Made by a program: the position numbers and the translations under genes
Notes under the pieces: generated by a model
What the model saw: only the letters and a program-made list of their open reading frames with translations
The model's database searches: none
What the model was told of the DNA's origin: nothing
In this document: in pieces, positions 2,642 to 61,859 of the stretch
Position numbering within the stretch: position 1 is the stretch's first letter
Layout of the letters: every line of letters starts with the position of its first letter
Virus record (IMG/VR): IMGVR_UViG_3300044856_000216
Location: 1 to 64,000 of that record
Source of the DNA: a virus
Length of the DNA stretch: 64,000 nt
Reading direction: 5' to 3' (one strand)

Positions 2642-5600
2642 TTAATCCTCCGTATATTCCATGTCATCCAAATGATAAACACGATCATGAATGTCGCCAT
2701 ATCTACCCTGATTACCACCATTTTTTGCAGTGCCAATATAACCACAAACTCTAAATGCTATATCCATTGTTGTATTGTCAGTATTCCCACAGCTAGGACA
2801 CTCCCATTTAAGTCTATTGTTTTCGTCTGATACAAGAGGAATATCACCATCAAAGCCACATTTTTCACAATAACAACTCTTTGTATTAATCTCTGCATAC
2901 ATGATGTTGTTATAAATAAACTTAATAACTTCTAATATAGCAGGAATATTATGACTCATACTTGGTATTTCGATATATGAAATTGCTCCTCCTGGACTTA
3001 ATTTTTGAAATTTTGATTCGATTCTTAACTTTTCAAATGCTGTGATATGTTCAAAGACAGGAATATGATATGAATTAGTAATATAATTTCTATCGAAACC
3101 ATCTAATTTTTCAAAGATATCGTTACCGAAACGAGATTTTAGGCACTTTGCAAATTTGTAAGTTGTGGACTCTAATGGTGTTCCGTACAAACTATAATCA
3201 ATATTTTCTGCTTGTTTCCACTGATTACATTTATCATTTAACGCCTGCATAACCTTTAATCCAAACTCTTCGCCAATTCCTTCATCCGAATGAGAGTGAC
3301 CAGTCATAAATTTTACACATTCATATAAACCAGCATAACCAAGTGATATTGTAGAATAACCATCATAAAGAAGTCTGTCGATTTTCTCATGTTTCTTTAA
3401 TCTAGCATATGCTCCATGCTGCCATAGAATAGGTGCTACATCAGAAGATGTGCCAAGTAATCGCTCATGTCTTGCTCTTAATGCTTTATGACATAATTCC
3501 GTTCTTTCCTCAAAGATTTCCCAAAACTTATCAAAATCTCCGTCAGATGAAAAAGCAATATCTGGAAGAGAAATCGTTACAACGCCCTGATTGAATCGTC
3601 CATAATATTTATGTTTATTCGGATCAAAGTTCTTTGCATTTGCAATATTTCCCACTTTATCTGTAAATCTATCTACAGTAAGGAAACTTCGGCAATTGTG
3701 ACTATAAATACCACTAACTTCAAAATGCTCACTAGATGTTGTCACATCATAACTATACATTTCTTTATGAATCGGATTAATCTTGATAACCTCTGATTCA
3801 ATAGCATATCCTGATACATTTGATTCAATATAGTTATCACATTTCTTTTTGCATACAATGTAATTAACTAATTCATCAGTTGGGTAAAATTCAACCCTAT
3901 ATCTAATCAATTCTGGATTTTTCTTTGTGTAATGATTATGATATATTTTAGCTGGGATTCCAATAGATTGTGCTAACGCCATTTGCTGAAGTGCTAATTC
4001 TTTATTAGTAGAGCCGATTTGAACAGTAGAAAAGTTATTTTCATTTTGATGTGAATTGATATATCCGTCTGCATCAATCATTCCTGCAAAAAAGGCAAGC
4101 TTCGCTTCATAATTCCATGAGAATACTTCATTCGGAATTTGTCTATTTACTTTATTTATACCGCCAAATTTTGATGTAAAATAATTTGTCACATATTGAA
4201 TTCCACCGTTATTATCTGAAATTGCACATAAATCTTTGTATGTTCCTTTTTTACCACGTTCTTGTAGAATTGTTTTAACATTCAGTCCGAAATATTTAGT
4301 AAATGTATTGCTAAATTTTTCTTCAATTTCATCTTCTCCTGTTGCAGCAATAGACGCAAATACATGATTATTTTGATAACACCCATCACATAACATAAAT
4401 CCTAATAGCCATGCTTTATCAGCATTGAATATAATTGATTCTTCATTATATTGATTTGAGTTGATTAAGATTTTGTCTCCAAGTTTCAATTCTGATGCGT
4501 GTACATTTCTACCATCTCTTAATGTTAATGGATGATCTGTTGTACATAATAATCTTCTACCATTAGAAAAGTCCACATCCAACCATTCACTTGATACATT
4601 ACGAATAATTCTTTTTGTATCAACAAATCCTTTTTCTGTATCATAAATCGTTACTTCTGATAAATCCATATATAAATTAGGATTATCTTCGGAATACTGG
4701 TGTTTGATTTCAAATGAATCAGACAACCTCCTCCACATTCTTTCGAATGATTCTACATATAAATTATTCTTAATCTTATATGTGATAAGTTCTTTTCCGT
4801 CAACACACCCCATACATGTATAGACATCACCTTTTAATTCAAGCATCATTTTTTCAGATATGTAATCAGGGACAAGCCTCTTAGATGTACATTTAGCTGC
4901 TAATTCTGTAAGATACCAGTACTTTGAATCCTCTGTGATATTATCTTCTTCTAATACATAGATAAGTTTAGGAAATGCAGGTGCAATATAAACACCCTCT
5001 TCGTTTTTTACGCCTTGAATTCTTTGGCGAAGTATCTCTTCGATTAACATCGCTAAGTCAGCTTTCTCTTGATTGTTCTTTGCTTCGTTCAGATACATAA
5101 AAATTGTGATAAAAGGTGCTTGTCCATTTGTTGTCATAAGTGTGACTAACTGATACTGAATTGTCTGAACACCTTTTTCTATTTCTTCTTTTAATCGTTC
5201 ATTTGTTATATTAATGACTTCTGCAAGGTCTTCATTATACTCACTAATCAATCCATTATTATATAATTCTTCTGTTACTTTCTTTCTGATTGATTTTCTA
5301 CTTACATCAACAAATGGGGCTAAATGTGCTAGAGAAATACTTTGTCCACCATACTGATTACTGGCAATCTGAGCAATTGCCTGTGTCTCGATATTGCAAG
5401 CAGTCGAAAAACTATGTGGCGTTTCAATAAGAGTTTCGCTAATTACGGTATTATTTTGAAGCATATCTTCAGAATTGACCAACCCACAGTTATTCATATG
5501 CTGTAAGAAGTAATCAGCATCATGAAAATGAATTAGTCCTTCGTTATGAGCTTGAATTATGTCAGGAGATAATAAATATCTTTTTGTCATATCTGTACTA

Positions 5601-6004
5601 ACAGATCCAGCAATATAATCTCTTTTAGTAGGATTTAATGTTGGATTTTTGTTTGCATTTTCATCTTTCCAATATTCATCTTTGTCTTCCACAAGGTCAT
5701 AAATCTCTATATCTGTTGTATTCTCATTCTCTCTTTGGAACTCACGAATACTTCTATATCCTTCATAAGCTTTTGCAGTAAGTCTCTGTTTCTTGGTGAT
5801 TAACTTATCAAACACCATTGACTCAATATCAGATACACTTACCTCATTCTTATCTTTACATTCATTTTCAATCTCATTTGCAATATCTTCTGCAATCTTT
5901 GGTTTTACAATACCTGAACCATTTTTCATTGCTTTAAGAATTGCTGCTGAAATTTTTGATTTATCAAAATCAACTTCTGAACAATCTCTCTTAATTACTT
6001 TCAA
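2642..6004 (-). CDS. nrdD: Anaerobic (class III) ribonucleoside-triphosphate reductase, interrupted in frame by an intein
   Basis: ATP-cone-like N-terminus, a C-terminal Zn ribbon (CEKCGF...CPSCG) and the glycyl-radical motif RVCGYIG. TTG start at 6004 preceded by AGGAGAATAA. An extra ~371 aa sits between YTCMG and CRSFLT. Confidence 0.9.
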   Translation of the reverse strand: MKVIKRDCSEVDFDKSKISAAILKAMKNGSGIVKPKIAEDIANEIENECKDKNEVSVSDIESMVFDKLITKKQRLTAKAYEGYRSIREFQRENENTTDIEIYDLVEDKDEYWKDENANKNPTLNPTKRDYIAGSVSTDMTKRYLLSPDIIQAHNEGLIHFHDADYFLQHMNNCGLVNSEDMLQNNTVISETLIETPHSFSTACNIETQAIAQIASNQYGGQSISLAHLAPFVDVSRKSIRKKVTEELYNNGLISEYNEDLAEVINITNERLKEEIEKGVQTIQYQLVTLMTTNGQAPFITIFMYLNEAKNNQEKADLAMLIEEILRQRIQGVKNEEGVYIAPAFPKLIYVLEEDNITEDSKYWYLTELAAKCTSKRLVPDYISEKMMLELKGDVYTCMGCVDGKELITYKIKNNLYVESFERMWRRLSDSFEIKHQYSEDNPNLYMDLSEVTIYDTEKGFVDTKRIIRNVSSEWLDVDFSNGRRLLCTTDHPLTLRDGRNVHASELKLGDKILINSNQYNEESIIFNADKAWLLGFMLCDGCYQNNHVFASIAATGEDEIEEKFSNTFTKYFGLNVKTILQERGKKGTYKDLCAISDNNGGIQYVTNYFTSKFGGINKVNRQIPNEVFSWNYEAKLAFFAGMIDADGYINSHQNENNFSTVQIGSTNKELALQQMALAQSIGIPAKIYHNHYTKKNPELIRYRVEFYPTDELVNYIVCKKKCDNYIESNVSGYAIESEVIKINPIHKEMYSYDVTTSSEHFEVSGIYSHNCRSFLTVDRFTDKVGNIANAKNFDPNKHKYYGRFNQGVVTISLPDIAFSSDGDFDKFWEIFEERTELCHKALRARHERLLGTSSDVAPILWQHGAYARLKKHEKIDRLLYDGYSTISLGYAGLYECVKFMTGHSHSDEGIGEEFGLKVMQALNDKCNQWKQAENIDYSLYGTPLESTTYKFAKCLKSRFGNDIFEKLDGFDRNYITNSYHIPVFEHITAFEKLRIESKFQKLSPGGAISYIEIPSMSHNIPAILEVIKFIYNNIMYAEINTKSCYCEKCGFDGDIPLVSDENNRLKWECPSCGNTDNTTMDIAFRVCGYIGTAKNGGNQGRYGDIHDRVYHLDDMEYTED
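3695..4807 (-). mobile_element. Intein (371 aa) with a LAGLIDADG homing-endonuclease domain inside NrdD
   Basis: Begins with Cys (CVDGKEL) and ends ...GIYSHN followed by extein Cys (CRSFL). Two LAGLIDADG blocks are present: LLGFMLCDGC and FFAGMIDADGY. Confidence 0.85.
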
Positions 6005-6194
6005 ATTTATTCTCCTTTCTTTTCTCCATTCGTTTATTCAGTATAAAATCTGCATATCCACTGTTTTCGTTACACGTATACTCAAAGTTACTCCAACTTT
6101 GATACTTATTTGCCGTAGCAGTTGACCTATAACACTTATCTTTCATAGGACAATTATCACTACTGCACATTGATATATCTGGCATATATTTCAC
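5991..6194 (-). CDS. Hypothetical Cys-rich protein
   Basis: Co-oriented ORF in tight minus-strand tiling with a MCSSDNCPMKDKCYR motif. No family recognised. Confidence 0.45.
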   Translation of the reverse strand: MKYMPDISMCSSDNCPMKDKCYRSTATANKYQSWSNFEYTCNENSGYADFILNKRMEKRKENKFESN

Positions 6195-53573: not shown

Positions 53574-54116
53574 TTATTCTCCTAATGGTCTTTCATATGT
53601 AACTAATTTTTCAACAATTAGATCCTTTGGTAATAAATCTCTACAGAAATATGCTGTTGCAAATGGACTACCTTTTACTACAGAATCCATATGCTCCTTA
53701 TTGTGATAACAAATTCTTGCATCAAAACTAAGAATCTGAATACCATCTTTGAAATATTTATATCTTGTTTTACCTTGTAGGGAATTAAGCGGTAGAAGAA
53801 CCGCAAATGGTTTATTGAATGAATAGAGTCTTTCTAAGACTTTATCTTTGATTGAGAAGGGTGGATTGCTAACTATGATATCCCATTTTTCAGGTTCATA
53901 ATTAAAAAAATCCTGACCTTCAGCTAATGAACTTCTGACTACATTGTATCCTTCTTCTTTTAGTCTGTTGTAGAAAGCAGACCAGTTTTCATCAAATGGA
54001 CACCATATAATTTTATCTTTTGGAAGATATTTAATAATGTGATCTGTTGCGTAATAGGGCGTGTATAACTCATTATCTTCCTTATCTGATGTTAAATATC
54101 CAATATTTAATGCCAA
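53574..54116 (-). CDS. Small N6-adenine DNA methyltransferase-like protein
   Basis: Motif IV IIVSNPPFS. TTG start at 54116 with only a weak GGTGA SD. Confidence 0.5.
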   Translation of the reverse strand: MALNIGYLTSDKEDNELYTPYYATDHIIKYLPKDKIIWCPFDENWSAFYNRLKEEGYNVVRSSLAEGQDFFNYEPEKWDIIVSNPPFSIKDKVLERLYSFNKPFAVLLPLNSLQGKTRYKYFKDGIQILSFDARICYHNKEHMDSVVKGSPFATAYFCRDLLPKDLIVEKLVTYERPLGE

Positions 54117-54205
54117 TATTTGTTCACCAATAGTAGCTGCGCAGCTTTACTCACATGTGAACATTTATCCTTTCTTTAATTGTACTTACTTTGTTATATT
54201 CTCTG

Positions 54206-54403
54206 TTACTTCTTTCTAATACTCCATAAATAAGGACTACTACATCCACAATGATGAATACCATCTCCAAGAACACATCTTCTGCAATCTTCATATTCTT
54301 CATGTGTACTACAATACTCTTTAACTGTATTTATAGCATTTATAATTTCTTCATTTATGGATTCTGGTTCAATATACTCTCTTTCTTCAATTCTCATAAT
54401 CAA
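54206..54403 (-). CDS. Hypothetical protein
   Basis: Co-oriented ORF. No family recognised. Confidence 0.4.
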   Translation of the reverse strand: MIMRIEEREYIEPESINEEIINAINTVKEYCSTHEEYEDCRRCVLGDGIHHCGCSSPYLWSIRKK

Positions 54404-54463
54404 TCACCTTTGTCCTGAATATTGTATAGTTTTCGTGACAAGCCAAGAAACCAAAATTTCATC

Positions 54464-54790
54464 TTACTTTTGCAAATTCTTCAATCTCTTATGACTCAAT
54501 ACATTCAGTGTATCTTCGATACCTTCATAATAAGCAGACTTCATATCTGGATTGTCATAATTTTTTGCCTTATCAAACACTTCTTTTATGTATGTCTCTT
54601 CATCTCTCTTATCTATAGATAATTGCTTAATTTTATCAATACAATCATCACATATATCCAGTCTGTTAAAAAGTTTATTCCAAATTCGACAACCATTAAT
54701 ATATCTTTTGGCAATTCCTGCAATATCAAATTCAAAACAAGGAATTCTATTTCCACAAATATCACATACTCGATAGTTTACTTTTGACAC
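54464..54790 (-). CDS. Zinc-finger protein
   Basis: CDICGN...CDDC. Confidence 0.45.
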   Translation of the reverse strand: MSKVNYRVCDICGNRIPCFEFDIAGIAKRYINGCRIWNKLFNRLDICDDCIDKIKQLSIDKRDEETYIKEVFDKAKNYDNPDMKSAYYEGIEDTLNVLSHKRLKNLQK

Positions 54791-54836
54791 TAAATCGCCT
54801 CCTGTAGATTAAAGAAATGTCTGATTAATTACTTGT

Positions 54837-55343
54837 TTATTCTTCACTCAAAATCTCTTTAGGACAGTAAATAATCTTCTTACCTGCTTTCTGTGCTTTA
54901 CGAATTGTTGACCAAACACCACCTGATTTATTCCCATCCCAAATTGCAAGAAGTACATCGCAATGGTCAACCATATATTGATCTCTTACATTGTCACATC
55001 CTTTATAGAATTCATCTGATAATTCAACCCATTCGTCTGCTTCATCCTTAATAAAACGATAATACTTATTTGAAGAGTTATAGTTTTTGCAGGGTAATAT
55101 ACAATGTAACTTTAAATTCTTTGTTCCATTTTTAATAACAGACACAACAAAGCCAAAACTAATATCACAACCAGAAGCCATTCCACAATATTCGTCAACA
55201 TATGTATTACTCAATATTGCAACTTCTGTCATTTTTGTAATTTGTTCAGTTAGCCAATTAGTAATTTTGCTCCACTTTTCATCCGTCTCATCTTCTGGTA
55301 ATCCTAATCTCTGAGGTCTATGACCTGTTAATGCTACCTTCAT
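54837..55343 (-). CDS. SLOG-superfamily YpsA/DUF1273-like protein (paralog 2)
   Basis: MKVALTGHRPQRLG and GMASGCDISF. Its termini are near-identical at the DNA level to those of 12510..13013. Confidence 0.5.
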   Translation of the reverse strand: MKVALTGHRPQRLGLPEDETDEKWSKITNWLTEQITKMTEVAILSNTYVDEYCGMASGCDISFGFVVSVIKNGTKNLKLHCILPCKNYNSSNKYYRFIKDEADEWVELSDEFYKGCDNVRDQYMVDHCDVLLAIWDGNKSGGVWSTIRKAQKAGKKIIYCPKEILSEE

Positions 55344-55386
55344 ATATTTTATTCTCCTTATCTAAAAACAAGAAATGCGAGTTTTA

Positions 55387-55629
55387 TCAAGTTAATACAA
55401 ACTCCATATCATATCTCCCAACTATTTTAATTTCAAAATATTTATTACCTTCTGTATATCCTGAAATAATTAGTTTATTTTTATCACAAGGAATATCTTC
55501 TATAATTTTCCCATACTTTTCTTTATAATGATGTAGTTGCTCAGATATGACATTTACATTATTAGGCTTTAATATCTGGATAGATTCTACACTTTTAATA
55601 ATTAATGAATTGTCCATATTTTTATTCAC
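55387..55629 (-). CDS. Hypothetical protein
   Basis: Co-oriented ORF. No family recognised. Confidence 0.4.
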   Translation of the reverse strand: MNKNMDNSLIIKSVESIQILKPNNVNVISEQLHHYKEKYGKIIEDIPCDKNKLIISGYTEGNKYFEIKIVGRYDMEFVLT

Positions 55630-55638
55630 CTCACTAAA

Positions 55639-56370
55639 TTATTCTCCAACTACAAACAACTTTTCTACTGCTTTTTCACCTGTTACTCTATCCGACTTTT
55701 GTAACACTTTACGTTCTTTCTTCCAGATACACTTAAAATCATCAGGCATATTATATTCACTTACCAACACTATATTGCTCTCTGAAAGTTTACGAAGAAA
55801 ATCGTAAAAAGAATCATAGTCAATTGACTGTTTAGAATACTGTTTTGTATTTTTGTAAGGTGGATCAAAATAAAATACGCAATTTTTATAATCTGAGAAA
55901 TTTTGATAATCGCAGCACGTTATTTCAATATCTTTTAATAATGGAGAATCTTCTTTCAAATTTTTGACTCTTTCCTGATAGATATTACGCTTACCAGTTT
56001 TATCCTTACCCCAACCGCCATCGAAGTATCTGCCACCATACGAACCACAATATCCAATTAATGCTGTATACTCCTTGGAGTATTTGCCAGTTCCTAATTT
56101 TCTATTCTCTCTTACTTCTGCATAATGTTCAAAATTACAATCTGGTGGTGCAATAGAAAGCGTTGAATCAGATTTTACATACTGTAACAATGCTATCAAT
56201 TCATCATTTACATCTGCTGCAATTCTGTTATCACATTGAATTTTTTCAATAATCGAACAACTACCACACATAGGTTCTATGTAAGTTTTAATATGATTAT
56301 CATCAATATACTTCTGAATAATCGGCACTAAAAATTTTGCCAACCTGTTTTTACTTCCTTGATATACCAT
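55639..56370 (-). CDS. dam: Dam-type (D12 class) N6-adenine DNA methyltransferase
   Basis: N-terminal YQGSKNRL, EPMCGSCS (AdoMet site) and DPPY motif IV. Confidence 0.75.
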   Translation of the reverse strand: MVYQGSKNRLAKFLVPIIQKYIDDNHIKTYIEPMCGSCSIIEKIQCDNRIAADVNDELIALLQYVKSDSTLSIAPPDCNFEHYAEVRENRKLGTGKYSKEYTALIGYCGSYGGRYFDGGWGKDKTGKRNIYQERVKNLKEDSPLLKDIEITCCDYQNFSDYKNCVFYFDPPYKNTKQYSKQSIDYDSFYDFLRKLSESNIVLVSEYNMPDDFKCIWKKERKVLQKSDRVTGEKAVEKLFVVGE

Positions 56371-57408: not shown

Positions 57409-57903
57409 TCAAAACCCAAATCTCGTAATATTAGTATCATCTGACCAACAGCCAAATGTACTATTATCACCGTAAGCTTTAACGCTTACTGTAGCTCCGT
57501 CCATACCATCTGTGATGAAATCATCAGTGTAATTAGTAGAGTAAAATGATGTATGTGTTGTATCAAATTCTTTGTAAGTTCCATCGGCTTTTGTGATACG
57601 CACCTTATAGGTTGTTGCGTTTTCGACCTCTGACCATTTGACTGCTACGTGACTGTAATGAAAATACCTTGATGCACTCTTGTAGTAAGATGCATATTTC
57701 ACCACCGGAGTAGCGAGGACGCATTTCTCGAGCCAATTTTTTACAGCATTGTTAATAGCATCTTCTAAAGCACCATCAGGCTGAAAGTTGATATCTGGGA
57801 TTTTAACAGATGGCGGATTAAGTGGTGGTGTGCAGGCATATGCTGGGATAGTAGAACCTACAATCATCATGGTTACAATTAAAGTACTTACTAATTTTTT
57901 CAT
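57409..57903 (-). CDS. Secreted protein, possible Fn3-like domain
   Basis: Signal peptide MKKLVSTLIVTMMIVGSTIPAYA. The segment ATTYKVRITKADGTYKEFDT is beta-rich. Confidence 0.45.
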   Translation of the reverse strand: MKKLVSTLIVTMMIVGSTIPAYACTPPLNPPSVKIPDINFQPDGALEDAINNAVKNWLEKCVLATPVVKYASYYKSASRYFHYSHVAVKWSEVENATTYKVRITKADGTYKEFDTTHTSFYSTNYTDDFITDGMDGATVSVKAYGDNSTFGCWSDDTNITRFGF

Positions 57904-58033
57904 ATTTTTTAATTCCTTTCTTTATTAGCATGTTTATATTGTTTTTATATAATAAGTGATCACCTATATTTATATTATTCTCTGATTTATTTAGATTTCT
58001 CATCATATCCAGTCTCTTCAAGGAATTTATCAA

Positions 58034-58322
58034 ATTCCTCTTTTGTCATATTGTTTGGATAATACATATCCATCACCATATCAAATGGCTGCAAATAATT
58101 ATCTAACACATTTCAAAAACTTCACCTCTTTTCATATTAAGAGTACATTCATTTCTGTACTCTATGAGAGCATCCTTATTCCTCATCATTACATGTTAGG
58201 ATCGAGGTTTGTTCCAAGGCATTATATTCTCAAATAAGTTTCAGCCTATACGCTCATCGGTTGACTGACTTGTTAGTTTCAGCCTTCACCTTTACCTTTT
58301 CACCATCTCAGGATTCATTGGT
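58034..58322 (-). ncRNA. Non-coding tract 3' of the TnpB-like gene; candidate omega/reRNA scaffold
   Basis: 289 nt without a credible ORF. Contains GGCUGAAAC twice and an 8-bp hairpin (AGAGUACA-8nt-UGUACUCU). TnpB guide RNAs are normally encoded at and after the 3' end of tnpB. Confidence 0.3.
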
Positions 58323-59552
58323 TTATTTAACCGTTTGTAGTGGTATATTTACGACTACTGGATGTGAACCTGCATCCACTATCCCATTGACGAAAGCCTT
58401 TGGGAATACCTTTTTCATTATCTGATAACTACCATTTACGTCTGCATTAATATATTTTCCCTTCTCACTCTGAAACAAACCTCTGTGAATTCTTCTGTCT
58501 TTATTGTAATTTTTCTCAATTGGTTCTTCACCATCAAGAAAAGATGTACCACTTGTATAACTTTCATTTGTTTTAATAAATTTAATTCCTTCATTCTCGC
58601 ATTTATATTCAAGCCTTTGTACAATACTTAAATATGGAATAGATACAAATTTCTGATTAACTCTTTTGCCCATATTGGTATCTTGTTTCCAGCCTGAATT
58701 ATAACCACAAACTAAAGTATCAATATTATTACACTTACAAAAATTTACCACCATCTTTGTTGATTTCTGAATATAGTCATCTACTTGATTATTTCTTTTA
58801 GTTGTAAATCTTTGCATCTCATTTGACCAATCACTATCATTTCTCAGCTTTAATGCAGATCTCATTTCTGAAATTTTCTTATTATAATACTGATTAATTG
58901 ACTTTAATGGTTTTCCATTTATTATAATTGGACTCACGTCACAGTTTGTTGTAATAGTCATTAAATTATCAACACCTAAGTCAATCGCAGCAATTCTCTC
59001 TGATACTATATTCTCTGTTTCAGGAACTTCTATTTTATATACTATCTCCATAACATAATAATCGGCTTTGGGAACAAATCTACATTGCATCAGTTTACCT
59101 TCAGCATGAGTATTCACTGTATAACCACCAAAAGGTTTAAATGCAATTCTGAATTGTCTATCATTTAATGAGCACTGTATATTCTTCAGCATAAAAACCT
59201 GTCTGCCGTCCTTCGGTAAATACTTAGGTAATTTTGGCATTCCTAAATACTTTGATGGATTTTTCTTCCAATCTTTTATTGCAACAAAATAGCCTTTCCA
59301 CATTTTATCTACAAGCTGTATTGTTTTCTGTGCTGCTTGCGAACCACATTCCTTATAGCAATCCATTGACTGCATAAGTTTTTGGACATCATAAGCACCT
59401 ATTTTATTTTTATTATTAATGAATTCTTGTCTAATAATATAATTTGCTTGATTATATACATTCTTTGAATAGAAACAATACTGGTCTACAATTTTATATA
59501 TAGGATTATTTCTTTTAATTATTTGCTGTTCAACACGATTAACTTTTTTCAT
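58323..59552 (-). CDS. tnpB: TnpB-like (IS200/IS605 OrfB-type) RuvC nuclease, 409 aa, no zinc finger
   Basis: RuvC-I is IAAIDLGVDNLMT. Central block VCGYNSGWKQDTNMGKRVNQKF. The tail is NESYTSGTSFLDGEEP...RGLFQSEKGKYINADVNGSYQIMKK (RuvC-III D). CxxC...CxxC is absent. AAGGAAA SD before ATG 59552. Confidence 0.8.
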   Translation of the reverse strand: MKKVNRVEQQIIKRNNPIYKIVDQYCFYSKNVYNQANYIIRQEFINNKNKIGAYDVQKLMQSMDCYKECGSQAAQKTIQLVDKMWKGYFVAIKDWKKNPSKYLGMPKLPKYLPKDGRQVFMLKNIQCSLNDRQFRIAFKPFGGYTVNTHAEGKLMQCRFVPKADYYVMEIVYKIEVPETENIVSERIAAIDLGVDNLMTITTNCDVSPIIINGKPLKSINQYYNKKISEMRSALKLRNDSDWSNEMQRFTTKRNNQVDDYIQKSTKMVVNFCKCNNIDTLVCGYNSGWKQDTNMGKRVNQKFVSIPYLSIVQRLEYKCENEGIKFIKTNESYTSGTSFLDGEEPIEKNYNKDRRIHRGLFQSEKGKYINADVNGSYQIMKKVFPKAFVNGIVDAGSHPVVVNIPLQTVK

Positions 59553-59560
59553 TTAGTTTC

Positions 59561-59729
59561 CTTTATTTATTATTTTAAAAATTACATAGCTCTAAAACTA
59601 CTATTATTAATATGATTGTTGCTATAAGGGTTTATTACTAATTAAAATTACATAGCTCTAAAACCAAGTGATAATGCTGTAGCAACTCTGTTGGGTTTAT
59701 TACTAATTAAAATTACATAGCTCTAAAAC
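59561..59729 (-). CRISPR. Mini-CRISPR array: 3 repeats (35 nt; gene-proximal one degenerate) and 2 spacers (31 and 30 nt)
   Basis: Minus-strand repeat GTTTTAGAGCTATGTAATTTTAATTAGTAATAAAC occupies 59729-59695 and 59664-59630. The third copy (59598-59561) keeps only the first 21 nt. Spacers in crRNA sense: CCAACAGAGTTGCTACAGCATTATCACTTG and CCTTATAGCAACAATCATATTAATAATAGTA. Confidence 0.75.
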
Positions 59730-59750
59730 CTCAAATATGTATTCGTAATT

Positions 59751-59779
59751 TATATAGTTTCTTGAAGTTTTACGTTCAA
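59751..59779 (-). promoter_or_regulatory. Sigma-70-like promoter reading into the array and tnpB
   Basis: Minus strand reads TTGAAC - 17 nt - TATATA, ending ~22 nt upstream of the first repeat. Confidence 0.5.
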
Positions 59780-59880
59780 TGGACAAAACCCACGCCCACT
59801 ATCCAATTGATTTCTCTTTTGGAATACTTGCTACAGGATAAACATTTATCTATCCTGTATTTATATATTCTCTCTTTCAA

Positions 59881-60030
59881 TTACATCATCGTTGCAATTT
59901 CAGATATACTCATTATGAACCAACATAAAGCCATTACAGACCATGTAAATTTTTGCATCTTTTCTTTTACAGAAACAGCGTTTGCAATGCTCAAAATAAC
60001 TAATGCAATGTGCATTATCAGTAAAATCAC
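59881..60030 (-). CDS. Small two-TM membrane protein (49 aa, GTG start)
   Basis: TTAGGAGGTGAGACA before GTG 60030. VILLIMHIALVILSIANAV...WSVMALCWFIMSISEIA. The longer track ORF has no SD. Confidence 0.45.
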   Translation of the reverse strand: MILLIMHIALVILSIANAVSVKEKMQKFTWSVMALCWFIMSISEIATMM

Positions 60031-60353: not shown

Positions 60354-61859
60354 TTAATCCACTTGTGGCTGATGAAAATTTGCCATCTTCTCATCTGTAC
60401 AAATATATGTATTGTCATACTGAGCCTTATATAAATGCTCAATCAACAAAGAGATGCAAGTTGTCACTATACTGTTACCGCTTTGTTTATATCCCTGGGT
60501 ATCAGACATTCCAACTGCTTTACAGTTCTCATAATCAATATCATCGAATCCCATGAGCCTGTGGCACTCTTTTGGTGTGAGCTTTCTCACAACTCTTAAA
60601 TTGTCTCTATCTTCTTCGACCATTTGTTGCCGATTTCCTCCCTGGCATGTTGTTATTGTTGGAGAAATATAATCTTTGTCCCAAACATTTCCTGCGAATC
60701 CAGTTCCTTTATTTTCACCATAAATATTAAAAAGTCTTTTTATATTATTTGAATCTGCAAGAATCTGTTTTGGCTGTTTATAATCAGTTGCCACTAAAGT
60801 ACCCATTACTGAATCCTGCTGATAAACTAAATCTCTCTGACCGATAGTTCTGAATTCAGGTTTTGTAGTGCCAACAATATTTTTTTTAAATTTTGGATCT
60901 GTTATCTGAAGTCTTTTCTGTACTTCATCAGATAAGAAATATTTCGCCAAAACACTGCTATCTGTTTCTAATAAATCCTTTAATCTGATTCCTGTGTCAA
61001 AAGGCTGTGGAAATTCAAAAGACTTGGTATCAATATCCTTACGAATAGAGATACAGAAGATTCTATTACGATTCTGTGGAACACCTGTGTTCTTTGCATT
61101 GATTGTCTGATAATATGAGTTATATCCCAAGTTATCAAGCCGAATCAGCCAATCCTTAAAACTGTCAATATACTTCTTTGATACAAGAGCATCTACATTC
61201 TCCATAAGCAAATACTTTGGCAATGTGTTATTCTCTTTTGCTTTTACAAGAAGTCTCTCAACTTCATACAATAAACCTGAACGAGTTGATTTAATGTTGT
61301 GACTGCCACAATTAGGGCAAGTATAACGAGTATCTACATCTAATTCTGATGGATCATATTCACAACCACAATCATGACATGTCCACTTTAATCCTTCCTG
61401 TTTACCGGCGATTGACAAATCTGTGCATGGAGTCGAGTATGTAAGTAAATCACTATATGGCAGTGACTCAATCTGCATCATATCGCCAAGATTATGTGAA
61501 ATATGGTCTGCTAACCAATATTTCTCAATACCTTTTGTCTTGTTCTTCTTTCGTGAAAGTTTTTCCCAATCATACGGAACATCTTTTTTAAAATCATATC
61601 CAAGTCTCTTATCTGTAAGCTGTCTTACCATTTCTTCTTTGCTTGGATAATCTTCATAGTTTTCAATCATCTCATTAGTCAAACCACAATGCATTGCAGC
61701 ATAACTAACTACTACTTCTTTGTCTAAATCTGCTGTTGCAATCATATTTGCATTAAATAGATGAGTATTATCAATTCCCTTCATCTGCGCACCAATACCA
61801 CTACAAAGCTCAATTACACTTAACTCACAATAATTATTTTTTTCTTTATTCTCTGTCAA
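60354..61859 (-). CDS. dcm: DNA (cytosine-5) methyltransferase with a zinc-ribbon insertion
   Basis: Motif I ELCSGIG, motif IV STPCTDLS, motif VI LMENV, motif VIII QNRNRIF and motif X SGNSIV. CHDCGC...CPNCGS is inserted between motifs IV and VI. TTG start. Confidence 0.85.
   Translation of the reverse strand: MTENKEKNNYCELSVIELCSGIGAQMKGIDNTHLFNANMIATADLDKEVVVSYAAMHCGLTNEMIENYEDYPSKEEMVRQLTDKRLGYDFKKDVPYDWEKLSRKKNKTKGIEKYWLADHISHNLGDMMQIESLPYSDLLTYSTPCTDLSIAGKQEGLKWTCHDCGCEYDPSELDVDTRYTCPNCGSHNIKSTRSGLLYEVERLLVKAKENNTLPKYLLMENVDALVSKKYIDSFKDWLIRLDNLGYNSYYQTINAKNTGVPQNRNRIFCISIRKDIDTKSFEFPQPFDTGIRLKDLLETDSSVLAKYFLSDEVQKRLQITDPKFKKNIVGTTKPEFRTIGQRDLVYQQDSVMGTLVATDYKQPKQILADSNNIKRLFNIYGENKGTGFAGNVWDKDYISPTITTCQGGNRQQMVEEDRDNLRVVRKLTPKECHRLMGFDDIDYENCKAVGMSDTQGYKQSGNSIVTTCISLLIEHLYKAQYDNTYICTDEKMANFHQPQVD

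What the first reader, a model, noticed from the sequence alone, without database searches (positions are those of the whole stretch)
58034..59552. Zinc-finger-less 409-aa TnpB-like nuclease co-transcribed with the array: possible hypercompact guide-RNA effector
The ORF has RuvC-I (AAIDLGVDN) and RuvC-III (INADVNGSYQI) motifs. Its tail (ESYTSGTSFLDGEEP...RGLFQSEKGKY) lacks the CxxC...CxxC zinc finger. From memory this is typical of one Firmicutes/Helicobacter IS605-orfB branch.

There is no TnpA (Y1 transposase) nearby. The degenerate last CRISPR repeat overlaps the gene's SD, so array and nuclease form one transcription unit. A 289-nt ORF-free tract follows the stop, which is where TnpB omega/reRNA scaffolds normally lie.

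Two readings are possible. It may be a non-autonomous IS element that landed beside an orphan array. Or it may be a TnpB-to-Cas12-like intermediate using CRISPR-type guides in a phage. At 409 aa it would be among the smallest RNA-guided nucleases.
Basis: partly seen in the sequence, partly recalled or inferred. Interest (0 to 1): 0.78.

Follow-up and report, generated by a model that had tools for sequence, protein, structure and literature searches.

The report
Phage TnpB nuclease with CRISPR mini-array
A large gut phage carries a 409-residue transposon-type (TnpB) nuclease that has become hard-wired to its own tiny CRISPR array and a duplicated guide-RNA scaffold, apparently to cut rival phages: a natural intermediate between a selfish transposon gene and a CRISPR-Cas12 system, of a kind first described in 2025 (TranC).

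Summary
The 409-aa ORF (58323-59552, minus strand) is a genuine TnpB-family protein with no zinc finger. The mini-array that abuts its start codon is real.

In about 25 phage or prophage contigs, every TnpB whose RuvC half is at least 66% identical carries the same upstream module. None of more than 100 more distant relatives does.

The module has three parts:
- a ~100-nt copy of the TnpB guide-RNA scaffold;
- an array of 1-4 spacers;
- tnpB, with its own scaffold overlapping its 3' end.

The loop of the upstream scaffold (GGGUUU) is complementary to the last six bases of every repeat (AAACCC). This mirrors a covarying pseudoknot in the gene's own scaffold.

Spacers differ between phages with identical nucleases and match other small phages. 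Their 5' flanks are purine/A-rich, and escape-like variants occur exactly there.

I read it as a TnpB-to-type-V intermediate, TranC-like, used in phage-phage conflict.

The 289-nt 3' tract is not the guide-RNA scaffold. It is a variable insert.

Unexpectedly, the array has type II-A format: an ATTTGAG leader end and 72% identity to the S. pyogenes repeat.

The kind is already known (TranC, 2025-26), so this is a variant, not a new category.

The parts
59861..59873 (-). Promoter-like phage motif AGAGAATATATAA, about 30 nt upstream of the module. It is the probable start of the scaffold-array-tnpB transcription unit (inferred).
   Evidence: The motif AGAGAATAWWWWA occurs 9 times in the window, always on the minus (coding) strand, against 0.42 expected by chance. 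A second copy at 57971-57983 lies beyond the 3' tract.
59730..59830 (-). Upstream scaffold copy ('UP'), a tracrRNA-like paralogue of the tnpB 3' guide-RNA scaffold. It has hairpin A (TCCAA/TTGGA), hairpin B (TGGGCG-TGGGTTT-TGTCCA) and hairpin C (TTGAA/TTCAA), followed by an anti-repeat stretch ACTATATAAATTAC. It ends in the type II-A leader motif ATTTGAG (59730-59736).
   Evidence: It is conserved in every array-bearing locus. Helices A, B, C and the pseudoknot pair in 100% of 11 sequences. It shares the core TCAATNGGATAGTGG with the ORF 3' end at the same offset. In L080 a natural deletion joins UP to the 3' scaffold. No such upstream copy exists in array-less relatives. ATTTGAG/GTTT is the type II-A group 1 leader end.
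59694..59729 (-). Repeat 1, GTTTTAGAGCTATGTAATTTTAATTAGTAATAAACC. The following base, C, behaves as repeat position 37.
   Evidence: It is 26/36 identical to the S. pyogenes type II-A repeat, a level reached by 0 of 100,000 shuffles.
59665..59693 (-). Spacer 1 (CAACAGAGTTGCTACAGCATTATCACTTG), on the leader-proximal side.
   Evidence: It matches 29/29 inside a tyrosine-recombinase gene of the 28.6-kb viral contig IMGVR_UViG_3300029249_000260. The 5' flank there is CCAAA. Some phages with the identical TnpB lack this spacer.
59629..59664 (-). Repeat 2, identical to repeat 1.
59599..59628 (-). Spacer 2 (CTTATAGCAACAATCATATTAATAATAGTA).
   Evidence: It matches 30/30 in the same 28.6-kb viral contig, inside an 83-aa ORF. 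The 5' flank there is TGGAA.
59563..59598 (-). Terminal degenerate repeat. The first 21 nt are kept; the rest is replaced by an A-rich stretch that leads into the tnpB ribosome-binding site (AGGAAAC, about 59556-59562).
   Evidence: The same truncation is seen in all clades.
58323..59552 (-). tnpB-like effector gene, 409 aa. The putative catalytic triad is D191 (58980-58982), E330 (58563-58565) and D371 (58440-58442). G283 (58704-58706) occupies the canonical RuvC-II glutamate position. There is no zinc finger. The protein is chimeric: residues 1-185 resemble an array-less TnpB group and residues 186-409 resemble the array-bearing group.
   Evidence: The AlphaFold model has pLDDT 82.8. The best Foldseek matches are AsCas12f (E 8e-16) and ISDra2 TnpB (5e-14).
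58312..58405 (-). The gene's own reRNA/omega-RNA-like scaffold, overlapping the last ~83 nt of the ORF. It has hairpin A (TCCC/GGGA), hairpin B (GGATG-CAGGTTCA-CATCC), hairpin C (GTAGT/ACTAC), hairpin D (GGTT/AACC) and the tail AATGAATC. The loop GGUUCA pairs with the tail UGAAUC as a pseudoknot.
   Evidence: The minimum-free-energy fold gives exactly four hairpins, z = -2.8. On 12 family members 94.8% of cells pair, against 26-53% when the structure is slid. Four pairs show compensatory changes, two of them in the pseudoknot, and 0 of 500 shuffles reach the covariation score.
58292..58311 (-). The position where a cis reRNA guide would lie (CTGAGATGGTGAAAAGGTAA). Its function here is unknown.
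   Evidence: Sequence conservation among relatives ends exactly after ...ATGAATC. This is inference by analogy with TnpB.
58126..58311 (-). A variable insert, not part of the module.
   Evidence: It is absent in L001-3 and L012, whose TnpB is 96-98% identical. It is 93% identical to L080 234-426, which lies in another context. It gives no Rfam or tRNA hit and folds at z = -1.4.

Best explanation
This is a phage-borne, TnpB-derived minimal CRISPR effector module. It is a TnpB-to-type-V intermediate that works like the recently described TranC systems.

Proposed mechanism:
1. One transcript starts at a phage promoter-like motif. It carries a ~100-nt copy of the TnpB guide-RNA scaffold (UP), then a mini-array, then tnpB.
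2. Each repeat-spacer unit supplies the missing 3' part of the scaffold. The middle of the repeat pairs with the anti-repeat at the end of UP, replacing hairpin D of the ancestral reRNA. The last six bases of the repeat (AAACCC) pair with the loop of UP hairpin B (GGGUUU). This rebuilds the pseudoknot that sits just 5' of the guide in the ancestral RNA.
3. The spacer, lying 3' of the repeat, is the guide.
4. The 409-aa protein has a RuvC site made of D191, a relocated E330 and D371, and no zinc finger. It cuts DNA that matches the spacer and has a purine/A-rich motif immediately 5' (RAA in this clade).
5. The targets are other, smaller phages of the same hosts, so the module serves phage-phage competition or superinfection exclusion.

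The gene also keeps its own cis scaffold at its 3' end, so it may still use a flank-derived guide as well.

What is shown by sequence comparison: the lineage-wide linkage, the RNA paralogy and complementarity, spacer turnover, and the targets with their 5' flank. What is inferred: RNA processing, RNP assembly, cleavage, and how spacers are acquired.
For: 1. Linkage. All 33 loci with readable upstream sequence whose RuvC half is at least 66% identical to the window's have UP plus repeats. None of more than 100 loci at 58% or below do, including the group that is 88-90% identical in the N-terminal half. The linked loci include a prophage in Eubacterium segne BX4 and further clades found through P0007.

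2. Module boundaries. Neighbouring sequence differs right up to CAAGTATTCC on one side and ATGAAT(C/T) on the other.

3. UP is a scaffold paralogue.
- It shares a core with the ORF 3' end, and hairpins B and C are kept with different stem sequences.
- L080 shows a deletion of array plus tnpB by recombination between the two copies.
- No such copy lies upstream of array-less relatives.

4. Pseudoknot.
- In the gene's own scaffold the loop-tail pairing covaries across the family: GGUUCA:UGAAUC, CAUUUA:UAAAUG, GGUUUA:UAAAUU.
- In UP the loop is GGGUUU and every repeat ends AAACC(C/U), which pairs in 11 of 11 sequences.

5. The array behaves as a live array. Ten contigs with the identical protein carry either [S28] or [S20][S28]. 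Relatives at 96-98% identity carry other spacers, and variation is mainly at the UP-proximal end.

6. Targets.
- Both window spacers and a spacer from a sister phage hit one 28.6-kb viral contig. Two of them lie in its integrase gene.
- Another spacer hits 13 small phage contigs.
- The five independent protospacers have 5' flanks CAAA|C, CAAA|C, GGAA|C, GGAA|C and TAGA|T. Their 3' flanks show no common motif.
- Among 13 target copies, the only polymorphisms between -53 and +63 are at -1 and -2.

7. Protein. It matches the TnpB HMM over its full length. It has a TnpB/Cas12f fold. D191, E330 and D371 are invariant. Replacement of the RuvC-II glutamate by glycine, with a compensating glutamate, is described for large TnpB clades that are presumed active (PMC10691335).

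8. Precedent. TranC systems use reRNA split into tracrRNA plus crRNA. One clade averages 414 aa, comes from a Caudoviricetes genome, targets phages and has a 5' PAM.
Against: - No experiment supports it. RNA ends, RNP formation and cleavage are all inferred.
- The anti-repeat:repeat duplex is weak in this AT-rich sequence. It is -7.9 kcal/mol in the window, no better than 20% of shuffles. It is clearer in sister clades at -13 to -14 kcal/mol, p about 0.01-0.05.
- RNAalifold prefers another pairing of UP with the leader-repeat junction.
- The UP pseudoknot is invariant, so it shows no covariation of its own.
- The 5' motif rests on five protospacers. A sixth, diverged match has GG at that place.
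- The array's leader end and repeat are of type II-A kind, so host Cas9 could also, or instead, use the spacers.
- The canonical RuvC-II glutamate is missing. Activity of the relocated site is assumed from the literature and not tested for this clade.
- No adaptation genes were found.
Confidence: 0.7

Rival explanations
1. The mini-array is a host-mimicking type II-A array, of the kind many viruses carry. It is read by the host's Cas9 with the host's tracrRNA, and new spacers are loaded by the host's Cas1-Cas2-Csn2. The neighbouring TnpB is an immobilised IS remnant that travels with the array but does not use it.
For: - The leader end ATTTGAG|GTTT is the conserved type II-A group 1 leader-anchoring motif. 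The last 10 nt of the leader plus one repeat are reported to be sufficient for adaptation.
- The repeat is 36 nt, is 26/36 identical to the S. pyogenes repeat, and the spacers are 29-31 nt.
- The terminal repeat keeps exactly the 5' ~21 nt that a Cas9 crRNA would need.
- Viral mini-arrays that exploit host Cas proteins against related viruses are established (PMC11656645).
- Two of five 3' flanks read NGG.
Against: - It does not explain why the array is always preceded by a copy of the TnpB scaffold whose loop is complementary to the repeat's 3' end.
- It does not explain why the array follows the RuvC half of one TnpB lineage without exception.
- The 5' flank is conserved and carries the only local polymorphisms in the target population. 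The 3' flanks AAG, AGG, GGA, TGT and TGG show no common motif.
- There is no Cas9-type anti-repeat or cas gene in the window, though the host genome could not be examined.
- The two uses are not mutually exclusive.
Confidence: 0.13
2. The protein is a nuclease-dead or nuclease-impaired RNA-guided DNA binder, like TldR or Cas12m. It silences rival phage genes rather than cutting them, using the array as its source of guides.
For: - The canonical RuvC-II glutamate is replaced by glycine and the zinc finger is gone.
- Phage-encoded TnpB derivatives that act as RNA-guided repressors are known (TldR; listed).
Against: - D191, E330 and D371 are invariant in 25 and 32 aligned relatives.
- The same Glu-to-Gly rearrangement with a compensating glutamate defines large TnpB clades that are judged catalytically active.
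- The C-terminus is full length, unlike TldR.
- The protospacers lie inside coding regions, in either orientation relative to the gene, not at promoters.
- The escape-like changes next to a protospacer suggest lethal targeting.
Confidence: 0.07
3. This is an ordinary non-autonomous IS200/IS605 element (tnpB only) that happened to insert next to an orphan CRISPR array. The adjacency has no functional meaning.
For: - The protein is annotated as a transposase or TnpB in public records and belongs to a very large, otherwise IS-like family.
- It keeps a complete cis reRNA-like scaffold.
Against: - The adjacency is conserved from 63% to 100% protein identity, in different neighbourhoods and with different spacers.
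- No close copy lacks the array.
- There is no TnpA and no second copy in the 64-kb window.
- The scaffold paralogue is complementary to the repeats.
Confidence: 0.03

Closest known systems
TranC (transposon-CRISPR intermediates; Jin et al., Cell 2025, cited from my own knowledge and through bioRxiv 10.64898/2026.03.27.714800), in particular the ~414-aa 'clade 9' and CauTranC9 from a Caudoviricetes genome
   Same: - A TnpB-sized effector without expanded REC or WED domains.
- A short CRISPR array with no cas1 or cas2.
- A guide RNA best explained as the ancestral reRNA split into a tracr-like scaffold plus repeat-spacer.
- Spacers that match phages.
- A motif on the 5' side of the target.
- A phage-encoded location.
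   Different: - Membership could not be tested, because the published sequences are not in the held library.
- Here the scaffold copy and array lie upstream of the gene and are contiguous with it.
- The gene also keeps a full cis scaffold.
- The array has a type II-A leader end and repeat.
- The solved LaTranC structure is only a distant fold match (rank 41, E 3e-6).
IS200/IS605 TnpB with rearranged RuvC-II ('RIIr' clades) and lost zinc finger (Altae-Tran et al. 2023, PMC10691335)
   Same: - A full-length match to the TnpB HMM.
- A NADxN RuvC-III motif.
- Glycine at the canonical glutamate position with an alternative invariant glutamate.
- No C4 zinc finger.
- A reRNA scaffold overlapping the 3' end of the gene, with a sharp scaffold/guide boundary.
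   Different: - No TnpA and no sign of mobility as a unit.
- Fixed next to an array and a second scaffold copy.
- That survey reports that conserved Cas12-array associations almost always have the array downstream of the gene. Here it is upstream.
Cas12f / type V-F and the V-U variants (miniature type V effectors with tracrRNA)
   Same: - The best structural matches are to Cas12f (AsCas12f E 8e-16, TM about 0.54), and profile matches reach about 1e-10.
- A tracrRNA-dependent architecture.
- An array without adaptation genes.
   Different: - Only 13-16% identity.
- No zinc finger.
- A relocated catalytic glutamate.
- No N-terminal expansion.
- NCBIfam Cas12f2 scores 29.9 bits against a cut-off of 450.
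Viral CRISPR mini-arrays that use host Cas proteins (Faure 2019; Medvedeva 2019; reviewed in PMC11656645)
   Same: - One to four spacers.
- No cas genes nearby.
- Spacers against other viruses of the same host.
- A repeat of a type that cellular CRISPR systems use.
   Different: Here the array is welded to its own candidate effector and to a cognate scaffold RNA. The conserved target flank is on the 5' side, which is the wrong side for Cas9.

Membership tests
TnpB (RNA-guided nuclease of IS200/IS605) | Full-length match to the family profile and a RuvC/TnpB fold | tested here: met
   NF040570 scores 188 bits (cut-off 100) over residues 11-381. PF01385 and PF07282 both score above their cut-offs. 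Foldseek matches ISDra2 TnpB at E 5e-14.
TnpB (RNA-guided nuclease of IS200/IS605) | Catalytic D-E-D triad in the RuvC I/II/III motifs | tested here: inconclusive
   D191 and D371 are in place. The canonical RuvC-II glutamate is G283. The invariant E330 is the likely substitute, as described for RIIr clades.
TnpB (RNA-guided nuclease of IS200/IS605) | C4 zinc finger between RuvC-II and RuvC-III | tested here: not met
   There are no cysteine pairs in residues 330-370, and the same holds throughout the family alignment. The finger is known to be lost in some large TnpB branches, so it is not strictly defining.
TnpB (RNA-guided nuclease of IS200/IS605) | A structured reRNA/omega-RNA at the 3' end of the gene with a sharp scaffold/guide boundary | tested here: met
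   There are four hairpins plus a pseudoknot. 94.8% of cells pair, with compensatory changes, and 0 of 500 shuffles reach the covariation score. The fold has z = -2.8. Conservation stops at ATGAAT(C/T). This is computational evidence only.
TnpB (RNA-guided nuclease of IS200/IS605) | Part of a mobile IS: TnpA nearby or in trans, IS ends, multiple copies at different sites | tested here: not met
   There is no TnpA among the neighbours and no second copy in the window. The module always sits with UP and the array. Array-less relatives such as the L044-L079 group do occupy many sites.
TranC / minimal type V CRISPR-Cas | An evolutionarily conserved association of a TnpB-like effector with a CRISPR array | tested here: met
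   33 of 33 loci at 66% identity or above in the RuvC half have it, against 0 of more than 100 at 58% or below.
TranC / minimal type V CRISPR-Cas | A tracrRNA derived from the reRNA scaffold that pairs with the repeat (split guide RNA) | tested here: inconclusive
   The scaffold paralogue is established. Loop-tail complementarity holds in 11 of 11 sequences. The anti-repeat duplex is weak in the window clade. There are no RNA data.
TranC / minimal type V CRISPR-Cas | Spacers match mobile elements, with a PAM/TAM on the 5' side | tested here: met
   Five independent exact protospacers lie in other phage contigs. The 5' flanks are RAA|C four times and AGA|T once. Variants at -1 and -2 look like escape mutations. 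The sample is small.
TranC / minimal type V CRISPR-Cas | Sequence membership in a named TranC clade or V-U subtype | not testable with these tools
   The reference sequences are not held. LaTranC (9jfo) is only a distant structural match.
Type II-A CRISPR array | Leader end ATTTGAG/GTTT, a 36-nt repeat of the II-A family, and ~30-nt spacers | tested here: met
Type II-A CRISPR array | Adjacent cas9-cas1-cas2-csn2 and a tracrRNA whose anti-repeat pairs with the 5' part of the repeat | tested here: not met
   No cas gene was found among the window ORFs checked, and no anti-repeat lies elsewhere in the window. The host genome was not examined.
Type II-A CRISPR array | A PAM on the 3' side of the protospacers | tested here: inconclusive
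   The 3' flanks are AAG, AGG, GGA, TGT and TGG, with no shared motif. Two of the five read NGG.
TldR (nuclease-dead TnpB repressors) | Loss of RuvC catalytic residues or C-terminal truncation, with guides aimed at promoters | tested here: not met
   The protein is full length with D191, E330 and D371 invariant. The targets lie inside ORFs.

The most novel reading that the evidence does not exclude
This is a cross-type hybrid. A TnpB-derived (type V-like) effector has captured a type II-A style array: the leader-anchoring motif, a II-A repeat and 30-nt spacers.

The phage would then get its spacers loaded by the host's type II-A adaptation machinery, while reading them with its own nuclease through a scaffold paralogue.

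Each spacer might even serve two readers. Host Cas9 would read the spacer plus the 5' part of the downstream repeat. The phage TnpB would read the 3' tail of the upstream repeat plus the spacer.

This would be a concrete, testable example of a type V system arising by association with a pre-existing array of another type, rather than by duplication of omega-RNA segments.
Probability: 0.28. Interest if true: 0.85.

Novelty: new variant of a known kind. Interest (0 to 1): 0.62.

Why it matters
The step from a selfish transposon nuclease (TnpB) to an adaptive-immunity effector (Cas12) has mostly been reconstructed from distant relatives. This locus keeps both states side by side. It has the ancestral cis guide-RNA scaffold at the 3' end of the gene. 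It also has a duplicated scaffold that is completed in trans or in cis by CRISPR repeats.

The two scaffolds use different, internally matched pseudoknot sequences, GGUUCA:UGAAUC and GGGUUU:AAACCC. That makes the 'RNA splitting' model directly testable by compensatory mutagenesis, in a system for which a cultured lysogen exists (Eubacterium segne BX4).

It also shows three further things:
- the system is used in phage-against-phage conflict in the human gut;
- the target-recognition half of the protein can be swapped by recombination while the RNA-binding/RuvC half stays with its array;
- the array may have been borrowed from a type II-A system.

Practically, it is a 409-aa, zinc-finger-free candidate editor with a short A-rich 5' motif.

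Tried and rejected
- Rfam. Gathering thresholds on the whole window gave no hit. Permissive thresholds on 57900-59900 gave only sub-threshold CRISPR-DR22 matches on the repeats.
- ARAGORN found no tRNA.
- phmmer of the single protein against PDB sequences found nothing. A family profile was needed.
- The idea that the 289-nt 3' tract is the omega-RNA was rejected. It is absent in the closest relatives, is present elsewhere in L080, and is not significantly structured.
- The inverted repeat I5 (58204-58216 with 58471-58483) was considered as a long-range omega-RNA stem. It was dropped because its distal arm lies in the non-conserved insert.
- RNAalifold on UP plus repeat 1 proposed pairing of AAAACUUCAAG with UUUGAGGUUUU. 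I did not adopt it because it destroys hairpin C, which is kept with compensated stems in the 3' paralogue, and because it works only for the first repeat. It is not excluded as a cis regulatory fold.
- Duplex energies of cognate versus non-cognate tracr-repeat pairs do not discriminate.
- The idea that UP is simply the IS left end (LE hairpins resembling RE hairpins) was rejected. Array-less family members have no such upstream copy within 800 nt.
- Spacer searches in INPHARED phages and PLSDB plasmids found nothing significant.
- The integrase-based search for relatives of the target phage returned only the same contig.
- The last viral scan and the metagenome scan returned only further arrays.
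- I tried to read the TAM from IS insertion sites of the L014 group (the donor of the window protein's N-terminal half). The boundaries were ambiguous, so I drew no conclusion.
- The supplement of the TranC preprint is not held and the Cell 2025 TranC paper is not in the library, so a direct sequence comparison was impossible.
Full report
**1. What is at the coordinates**

The finding spans 58034-59552. All features lie on the minus strand.
- ORF 58323..59552 encodes 409 aa.
- It matches NCBIfam NF040570 'RNA-guided endonuclease TnpB family' over its whole length (188 bits, E 2.9e-55).
- It also matches Pfam OrfB_IS605 plus Cas12f1-like_TNB, and PHROG 506 'transposase'.
- The stretch where TnpBs normally carry CxxC...CxxC reads YTSGTSFLDGEEPIEKNYNKDRRIHRGLFQSEKGKY, with no cysteine pairs.

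Two alignments, of 25 and 32 relatives, show that this loss is shared by the whole family.

The canonical RuvC-II glutamate position holds an invariant glycine (G283, ...DTLVCGYNSGW...). The invariant acidic residue is E330, in NESYTS.

This is the rearrangement described for large 'RIIr' TnpB clades. There the glutamate is replaced by glycine and a second glutamate is predicted to compensate. The same survey notes that the C4 zinc finger is lost in some large branches (PMC10691335).

An AlphaFold2 model has mean pLDDT 82.8. It finds AsCas12f (E 8e-16), ISDra2 TnpB (5e-14), ISFba1 TnpB and Fanzor2 as its best PDB matches.

**2. The array and its junction with the gene**

Upstream of the ATG lie:
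- two perfect 36-nt repeats, GTTTTAGAGCTATGTAATTTTAATTAGTAATAAACC, at 59694-59729 and 59629-59664;
- two spacers of 29 and 30 nt;
- a third repeat (59563-59598) that keeps only its first 21 nt and runs into the ribosome-binding site.

There is no other array in the window.

The neighbours are DNA methyltransferases, a YpsA-like protein and small ORFs. The large ORFs of the window are phage replication and nucleotide-metabolism genes: NrdD with an intein, NAD-dependent ligase, a RecD-like helicase, Pol III alpha and RecJ. No TnpA and no cas gene was seen.

A motif AGAGAATAWWWWA occurs nine times in the window, always on the coding strand, against 0.42 expected. One copy lies about 30 nt upstream of the module (59861-59873) and one beyond the 3' tract (57971-57983). 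This fits a single transcription unit, but that is inference.

**3. The 3' tract is not the guide-RNA scaffold**

In four phage contigs whose TnpB is 96-98% identical (L001-3, L012), the stop codon is followed by AACCAATGAATC. After that comes, directly, sequence that in the window lies about 100 and 330 nt further on. Two other close relatives (L004, L026) diverge completely right after ATGAATC.

Across all clades, including array-less ones, conservation ends at (A)GCCRATGAAT(C/T), 5-30 nt after the stop.

About 190 nt of the window's tract (58126-58315) is 93% identical to an intergenic stretch elsewhere in another phage (L080 234-426). It has no Rfam or tRNA match and no unusual fold.

By contrast, the last ~83 nt of the ORF plus 11 nt (58312-58405) are conserved at the nucleotide level. 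They fold into four hairpins, A to D, at -25.1 kcal/mol with z = -2.8.

I built constructs from 12 family members, each the A-B region joined to the 9-nt tail. On these, the proposed structure pairs in 94.8% of cells, against 26-53% when slid. It has four pairs with compensatory changes, and 0 of 500 shuffles reach its covariation score.

The loop of hairpin B pairs with the six bases that precede the scaffold/guide boundary:
- GGUUCA:UGAAUC in the window;
- CAUUUA:UAAAUG in L023;
- GGUUUA:UAAAUU in L025;
- GGUUUA:UAAAUC in the P0007 and P0003 loci.

This is the architecture expected of a TnpB reRNA/omega-RNA, here overlapping the gene's 3' end.

**4. The array travels with the nuclease lineage**

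A scan of IMG/VR found 271 relatives. The protein database holds thousands.

I ordered all fetched loci by identity of the RuvC half (residues 186-409). All 33 loci at 66% or above that have readable upstream sequence carry the upstream conserved element and repeats. None of more than 100 loci at 58% or below do.

The positive set covers:
- the window clade (96-100% identity);
- a 70% clade that includes a prophage in Eubacterium segne BX4, annotated there as 'TnpB';
- a 63% clade (L019);
- L086, with five repeats in a 201-kb phage;
- the P0007 clade.

Flanking genes differ between these loci right up to the module's ends.

The window protein is itself a chimera. Residues 1-185 are 83-97% identical to an array-less group (P0019, L014) but only 41-58% identical to the 70% clade. 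Residues 186-409 are 93-96% identical to the 70% clade. So the array follows the RuvC/3' half, which also encodes the scaffold.

**5. A second scaffold copy precedes the array and matches the repeats**

Directly upstream of repeat 1 every array-bearing locus has a ~100-nt conserved element, 'UP' (59730-59830).

It shares the core TCAATNGGATAGTGG with the ORF's 3' end at the same offset; 5 of 2000 shuffles score as well. It has the same order of hairpins, but with different stems:
- B: TGGGCG/TGTCCA in UP, GGATG/CATCC in the gene's scaffold;
- C: TTGAA/TTCAA in UP, GTAGT/ACTAC in the gene's scaffold.

In L080, which occupies the same genomic site as L007, array and tnpB are missing. The 5' half of UP is fused to the 3' half of the gene's scaffold there, as expected from recombination between two direct repeats.

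Array-less relatives have no such upstream copy within 800 nt. So UP is not a generic IS left end.

The loop of UP hairpin B is an invariant GGGUUU, and every repeat ends AAACC followed by C or U. On 11 diverse loci, helices A, B, C and this loop-tail helix pair in 100% of cells.

Where the gene's own scaffold has the short hairpin D, UP has an anti-repeat (ACTATATAAATTAC). It can pair with the middle of the repeat (GTAATTTTAATTAGT). One pair there changes C-G to U-A or U-G between clades.

This duplex is weak. It is -7.9 kcal/mol in the window, not better than shuffles, and -13 to -14 kcal/mol in sister clades with p about 0.01-0.05. RNAalifold prefers a different cis pairing.

I therefore regard the scaffold paralogy and the loop-tail match as well supported. 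The exact tracr:repeat duplex remains provisional.

**6. The array is live and aims at other phages**

- Ten contigs that encode the identical 409-aa protein carry either spacer 2 alone or spacer 1 plus spacer 2.
- Relatives at 96-98% identity carry other spacers. Mostly the UP-proximal spacer differs and the gene-proximal one is shared, though L001 keeps only the UP-proximal spacer 1.
- Both window spacers match perfectly in one 28.6-kb viral contig, IMGVR_UViG_3300029249_000260.
- Spacer 1 and a spacer from sister phages (L002, L012) lie 40 nt apart in its tyrosine-recombinase gene (PF00589). A spacer from a different mini-array in L080 hits the same gene.
- Spacer S22 matches 13 small phage contigs that encode portal, terminase and capsid proteins. 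S05, from the 70% clade, matches two further contigs.
- None of the spacers matches the carrier phages themselves.

The five independent protospacers have these flanks:

| Spacer | 5' flank | 3' flank |
|---|---|---|
| S20 (window spacer 1) | CAAA\|C | AAG |
| S22 | CAAA\|C | TGT |
| S21 | GGAA\|C | AGG |
| S28 (window spacer 2) | GGAA\|C | GGA |
| S05 | TAGA\|T | TGG |

Among the 13 copies of the S22 target, the only variable sites between -53 and +63 are -2 (A to C, once) and -1 (A to G, once).

A motif on the 5' side is what TnpB and Cas12 use. Cas9 reads the 3' side. The sample is small, and one diverged match has GG at -2/-1.

**7. An unexpected feature: the array is of type II-A format**

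- The last seven bases before repeat 1 are ATTTGAG and the repeat starts GTTT. This is exactly the leader-repeat junction conserved in group 1 type II-A loci. There the last 10 nt of the leader plus one repeat suffice for spacer integration (PMC5382924).
- The repeat is 36 nt, the spacers are 29-31 nt, and the repeat is 26/36 identical to the S. pyogenes repeat. None of 100,000 shuffles reaches that. The L086 repeat is 27/36 identical.
- The window holds no cas9, cas1 or Cas9-type anti-repeat.

So either the array was captured from a type II-A locus, or it mimics one so that the host's adaptation machinery will load it, or both.

The base after the 36-nt repeat is almost always C in the window clade and T in the others. 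It matches the target, and it would form the sixth pair of the loop-tail helix. Whether that reflects acquisition or selection is open.

**8. Most likely mechanism, and rivals**

I commit, at about 0.7, to a TranC-like mechanism.
- UP acts as a tracr-like scaffold.
- Each repeat supplies the 3' strand of the last stem and the pseudoknot tail.
- The spacer that follows is the guide.
- The D191/E330/D371 RuvC site cuts phage DNA that carries a 5' RAA-type motif.
- The gene's own reRNA may still function in parallel.

Shown: linkage, paralogy and complementarity, spacer turnover, targets and their 5' flank. Inferred: transcription, processing, assembly, cleavage and acquisition.

Rivals:

| Rival | Confidence | Comment |
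|---|---|---|
| Host-Cas9-read mini-array with a bystander TnpB | 0.13 | Not exclusive of the main model |
| Nuclease-dead, repressor-like use | 0.07 | |
| Chance adjacency of an ordinary IS | 0.03 | Contradicted |

**9. Comparison with what is known**

The kind is known. TranC systems were reported in 2025. A 2026 preprint describes a ~414-aa clade from a Caudoviricetes genome whose array targets phages and which needs a 5' PAM.

Whether the present family is that clade cannot be tested here. LaTranC is only a distant structural match.

Relative to published descriptions, the differences are:
- the upstream position of array and scaffold copy, whereas conserved Cas12-array associations are almost always downstream;
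- the retention of both scaffolds with matched but distinct pseudoknots;
- the type II-A style array;
- the RIIr, zinc-finger-less background;
- the recombinant N-terminal half.

I therefore file it as a new variant of a known kind. If the published clade 9 turns out to be the same family, it drops to a new member.

Noticed in passing
It is 93% identical between two phages in different genomic contexts and is absent from the window's closest relatives. It has no Rfam or tRNA match and no significant fold. In L080 it is preceded by ...AAAAC, which resembles the protospacer 5' flanks.
   Followed up: partly
L080 7403-7600 (IMGVR_UViG_3300045988_119919): This phage has a second, unrelated mini-array (repeat GTTTTAGATGTATATAAAATTACATGGATATAAAAC, 3-4 copies). 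One of its spacers hits the same integrase gene of the 28.6-kb contig that the window's spacer 1 targets.
   Followed up: partly
L080 3120-3290: A hybrid scaffold: the 5' half of UP is fused to the 3' half of the tnpB scaffold, at the same genomic site as L007. It is a natural deletion of array plus tnpB by recombination between the two scaffold copies.
   Followed up: yes
window 58323-59552 (protein residues 1-185 versus 186-409): The TnpB is a recombinant. The N-terminal (target-recognition) half is 83-97% identical to an array-less TnpB group. The RuvC half is 93-96% identical to the array-bearing 70% clade.
   Followed up: yes
window 6299, 8204, 21046, 27537, 34087, 37551, 49078, 57971, 59861 (all minus strand): The motif AGAGAATAWWWWA occurs 9 times, all on the coding strand, against 0.42 expected. 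It is probably a phage-specific promoter element.
   Followed up: partly
window 2645-6037 (minus strand): The anaerobic ribonucleotide reductase NrdD is interrupted by an intein with a LAGLIDADG homing endonuclease.
   Followed up: no
window 53574-56370 and 60354-61859 (minus strand): The TnpB module is flanked by a cluster of DNA methyltransferases: EcoRI-like, a D12 N6-adenine type, and a C5-cytosine type with an inserted zinc-ribbon-like segment. This suggests heavy anti-restriction investment.
   Followed up: no
L086 2668-2760 (IMGVR_UViG_2834277561_000001): One 'spacer' in this five-repeat array is 57 nt long, about twice the normal length. It may be two spacers with a lost repeat.
   Followed up: no
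L044-L079 (IMG/VR contigs): A more distant TnpB group (42-44% identity) sits at many different sites in large gut phages. It has a sharp right-end boundary (...ATAATTACC) and no array, and looks like a still-mobile relative spreading within phage genomes.
   Followed up: partly
L111 and L114 (targets of spacer S22): Two of 13 otherwise identical target copies carry single substitutions exactly at -1 (A to G) and -2 (A to C) relative to the protospacer. These are candidate TAM-escape mutants.
   Followed up: yes
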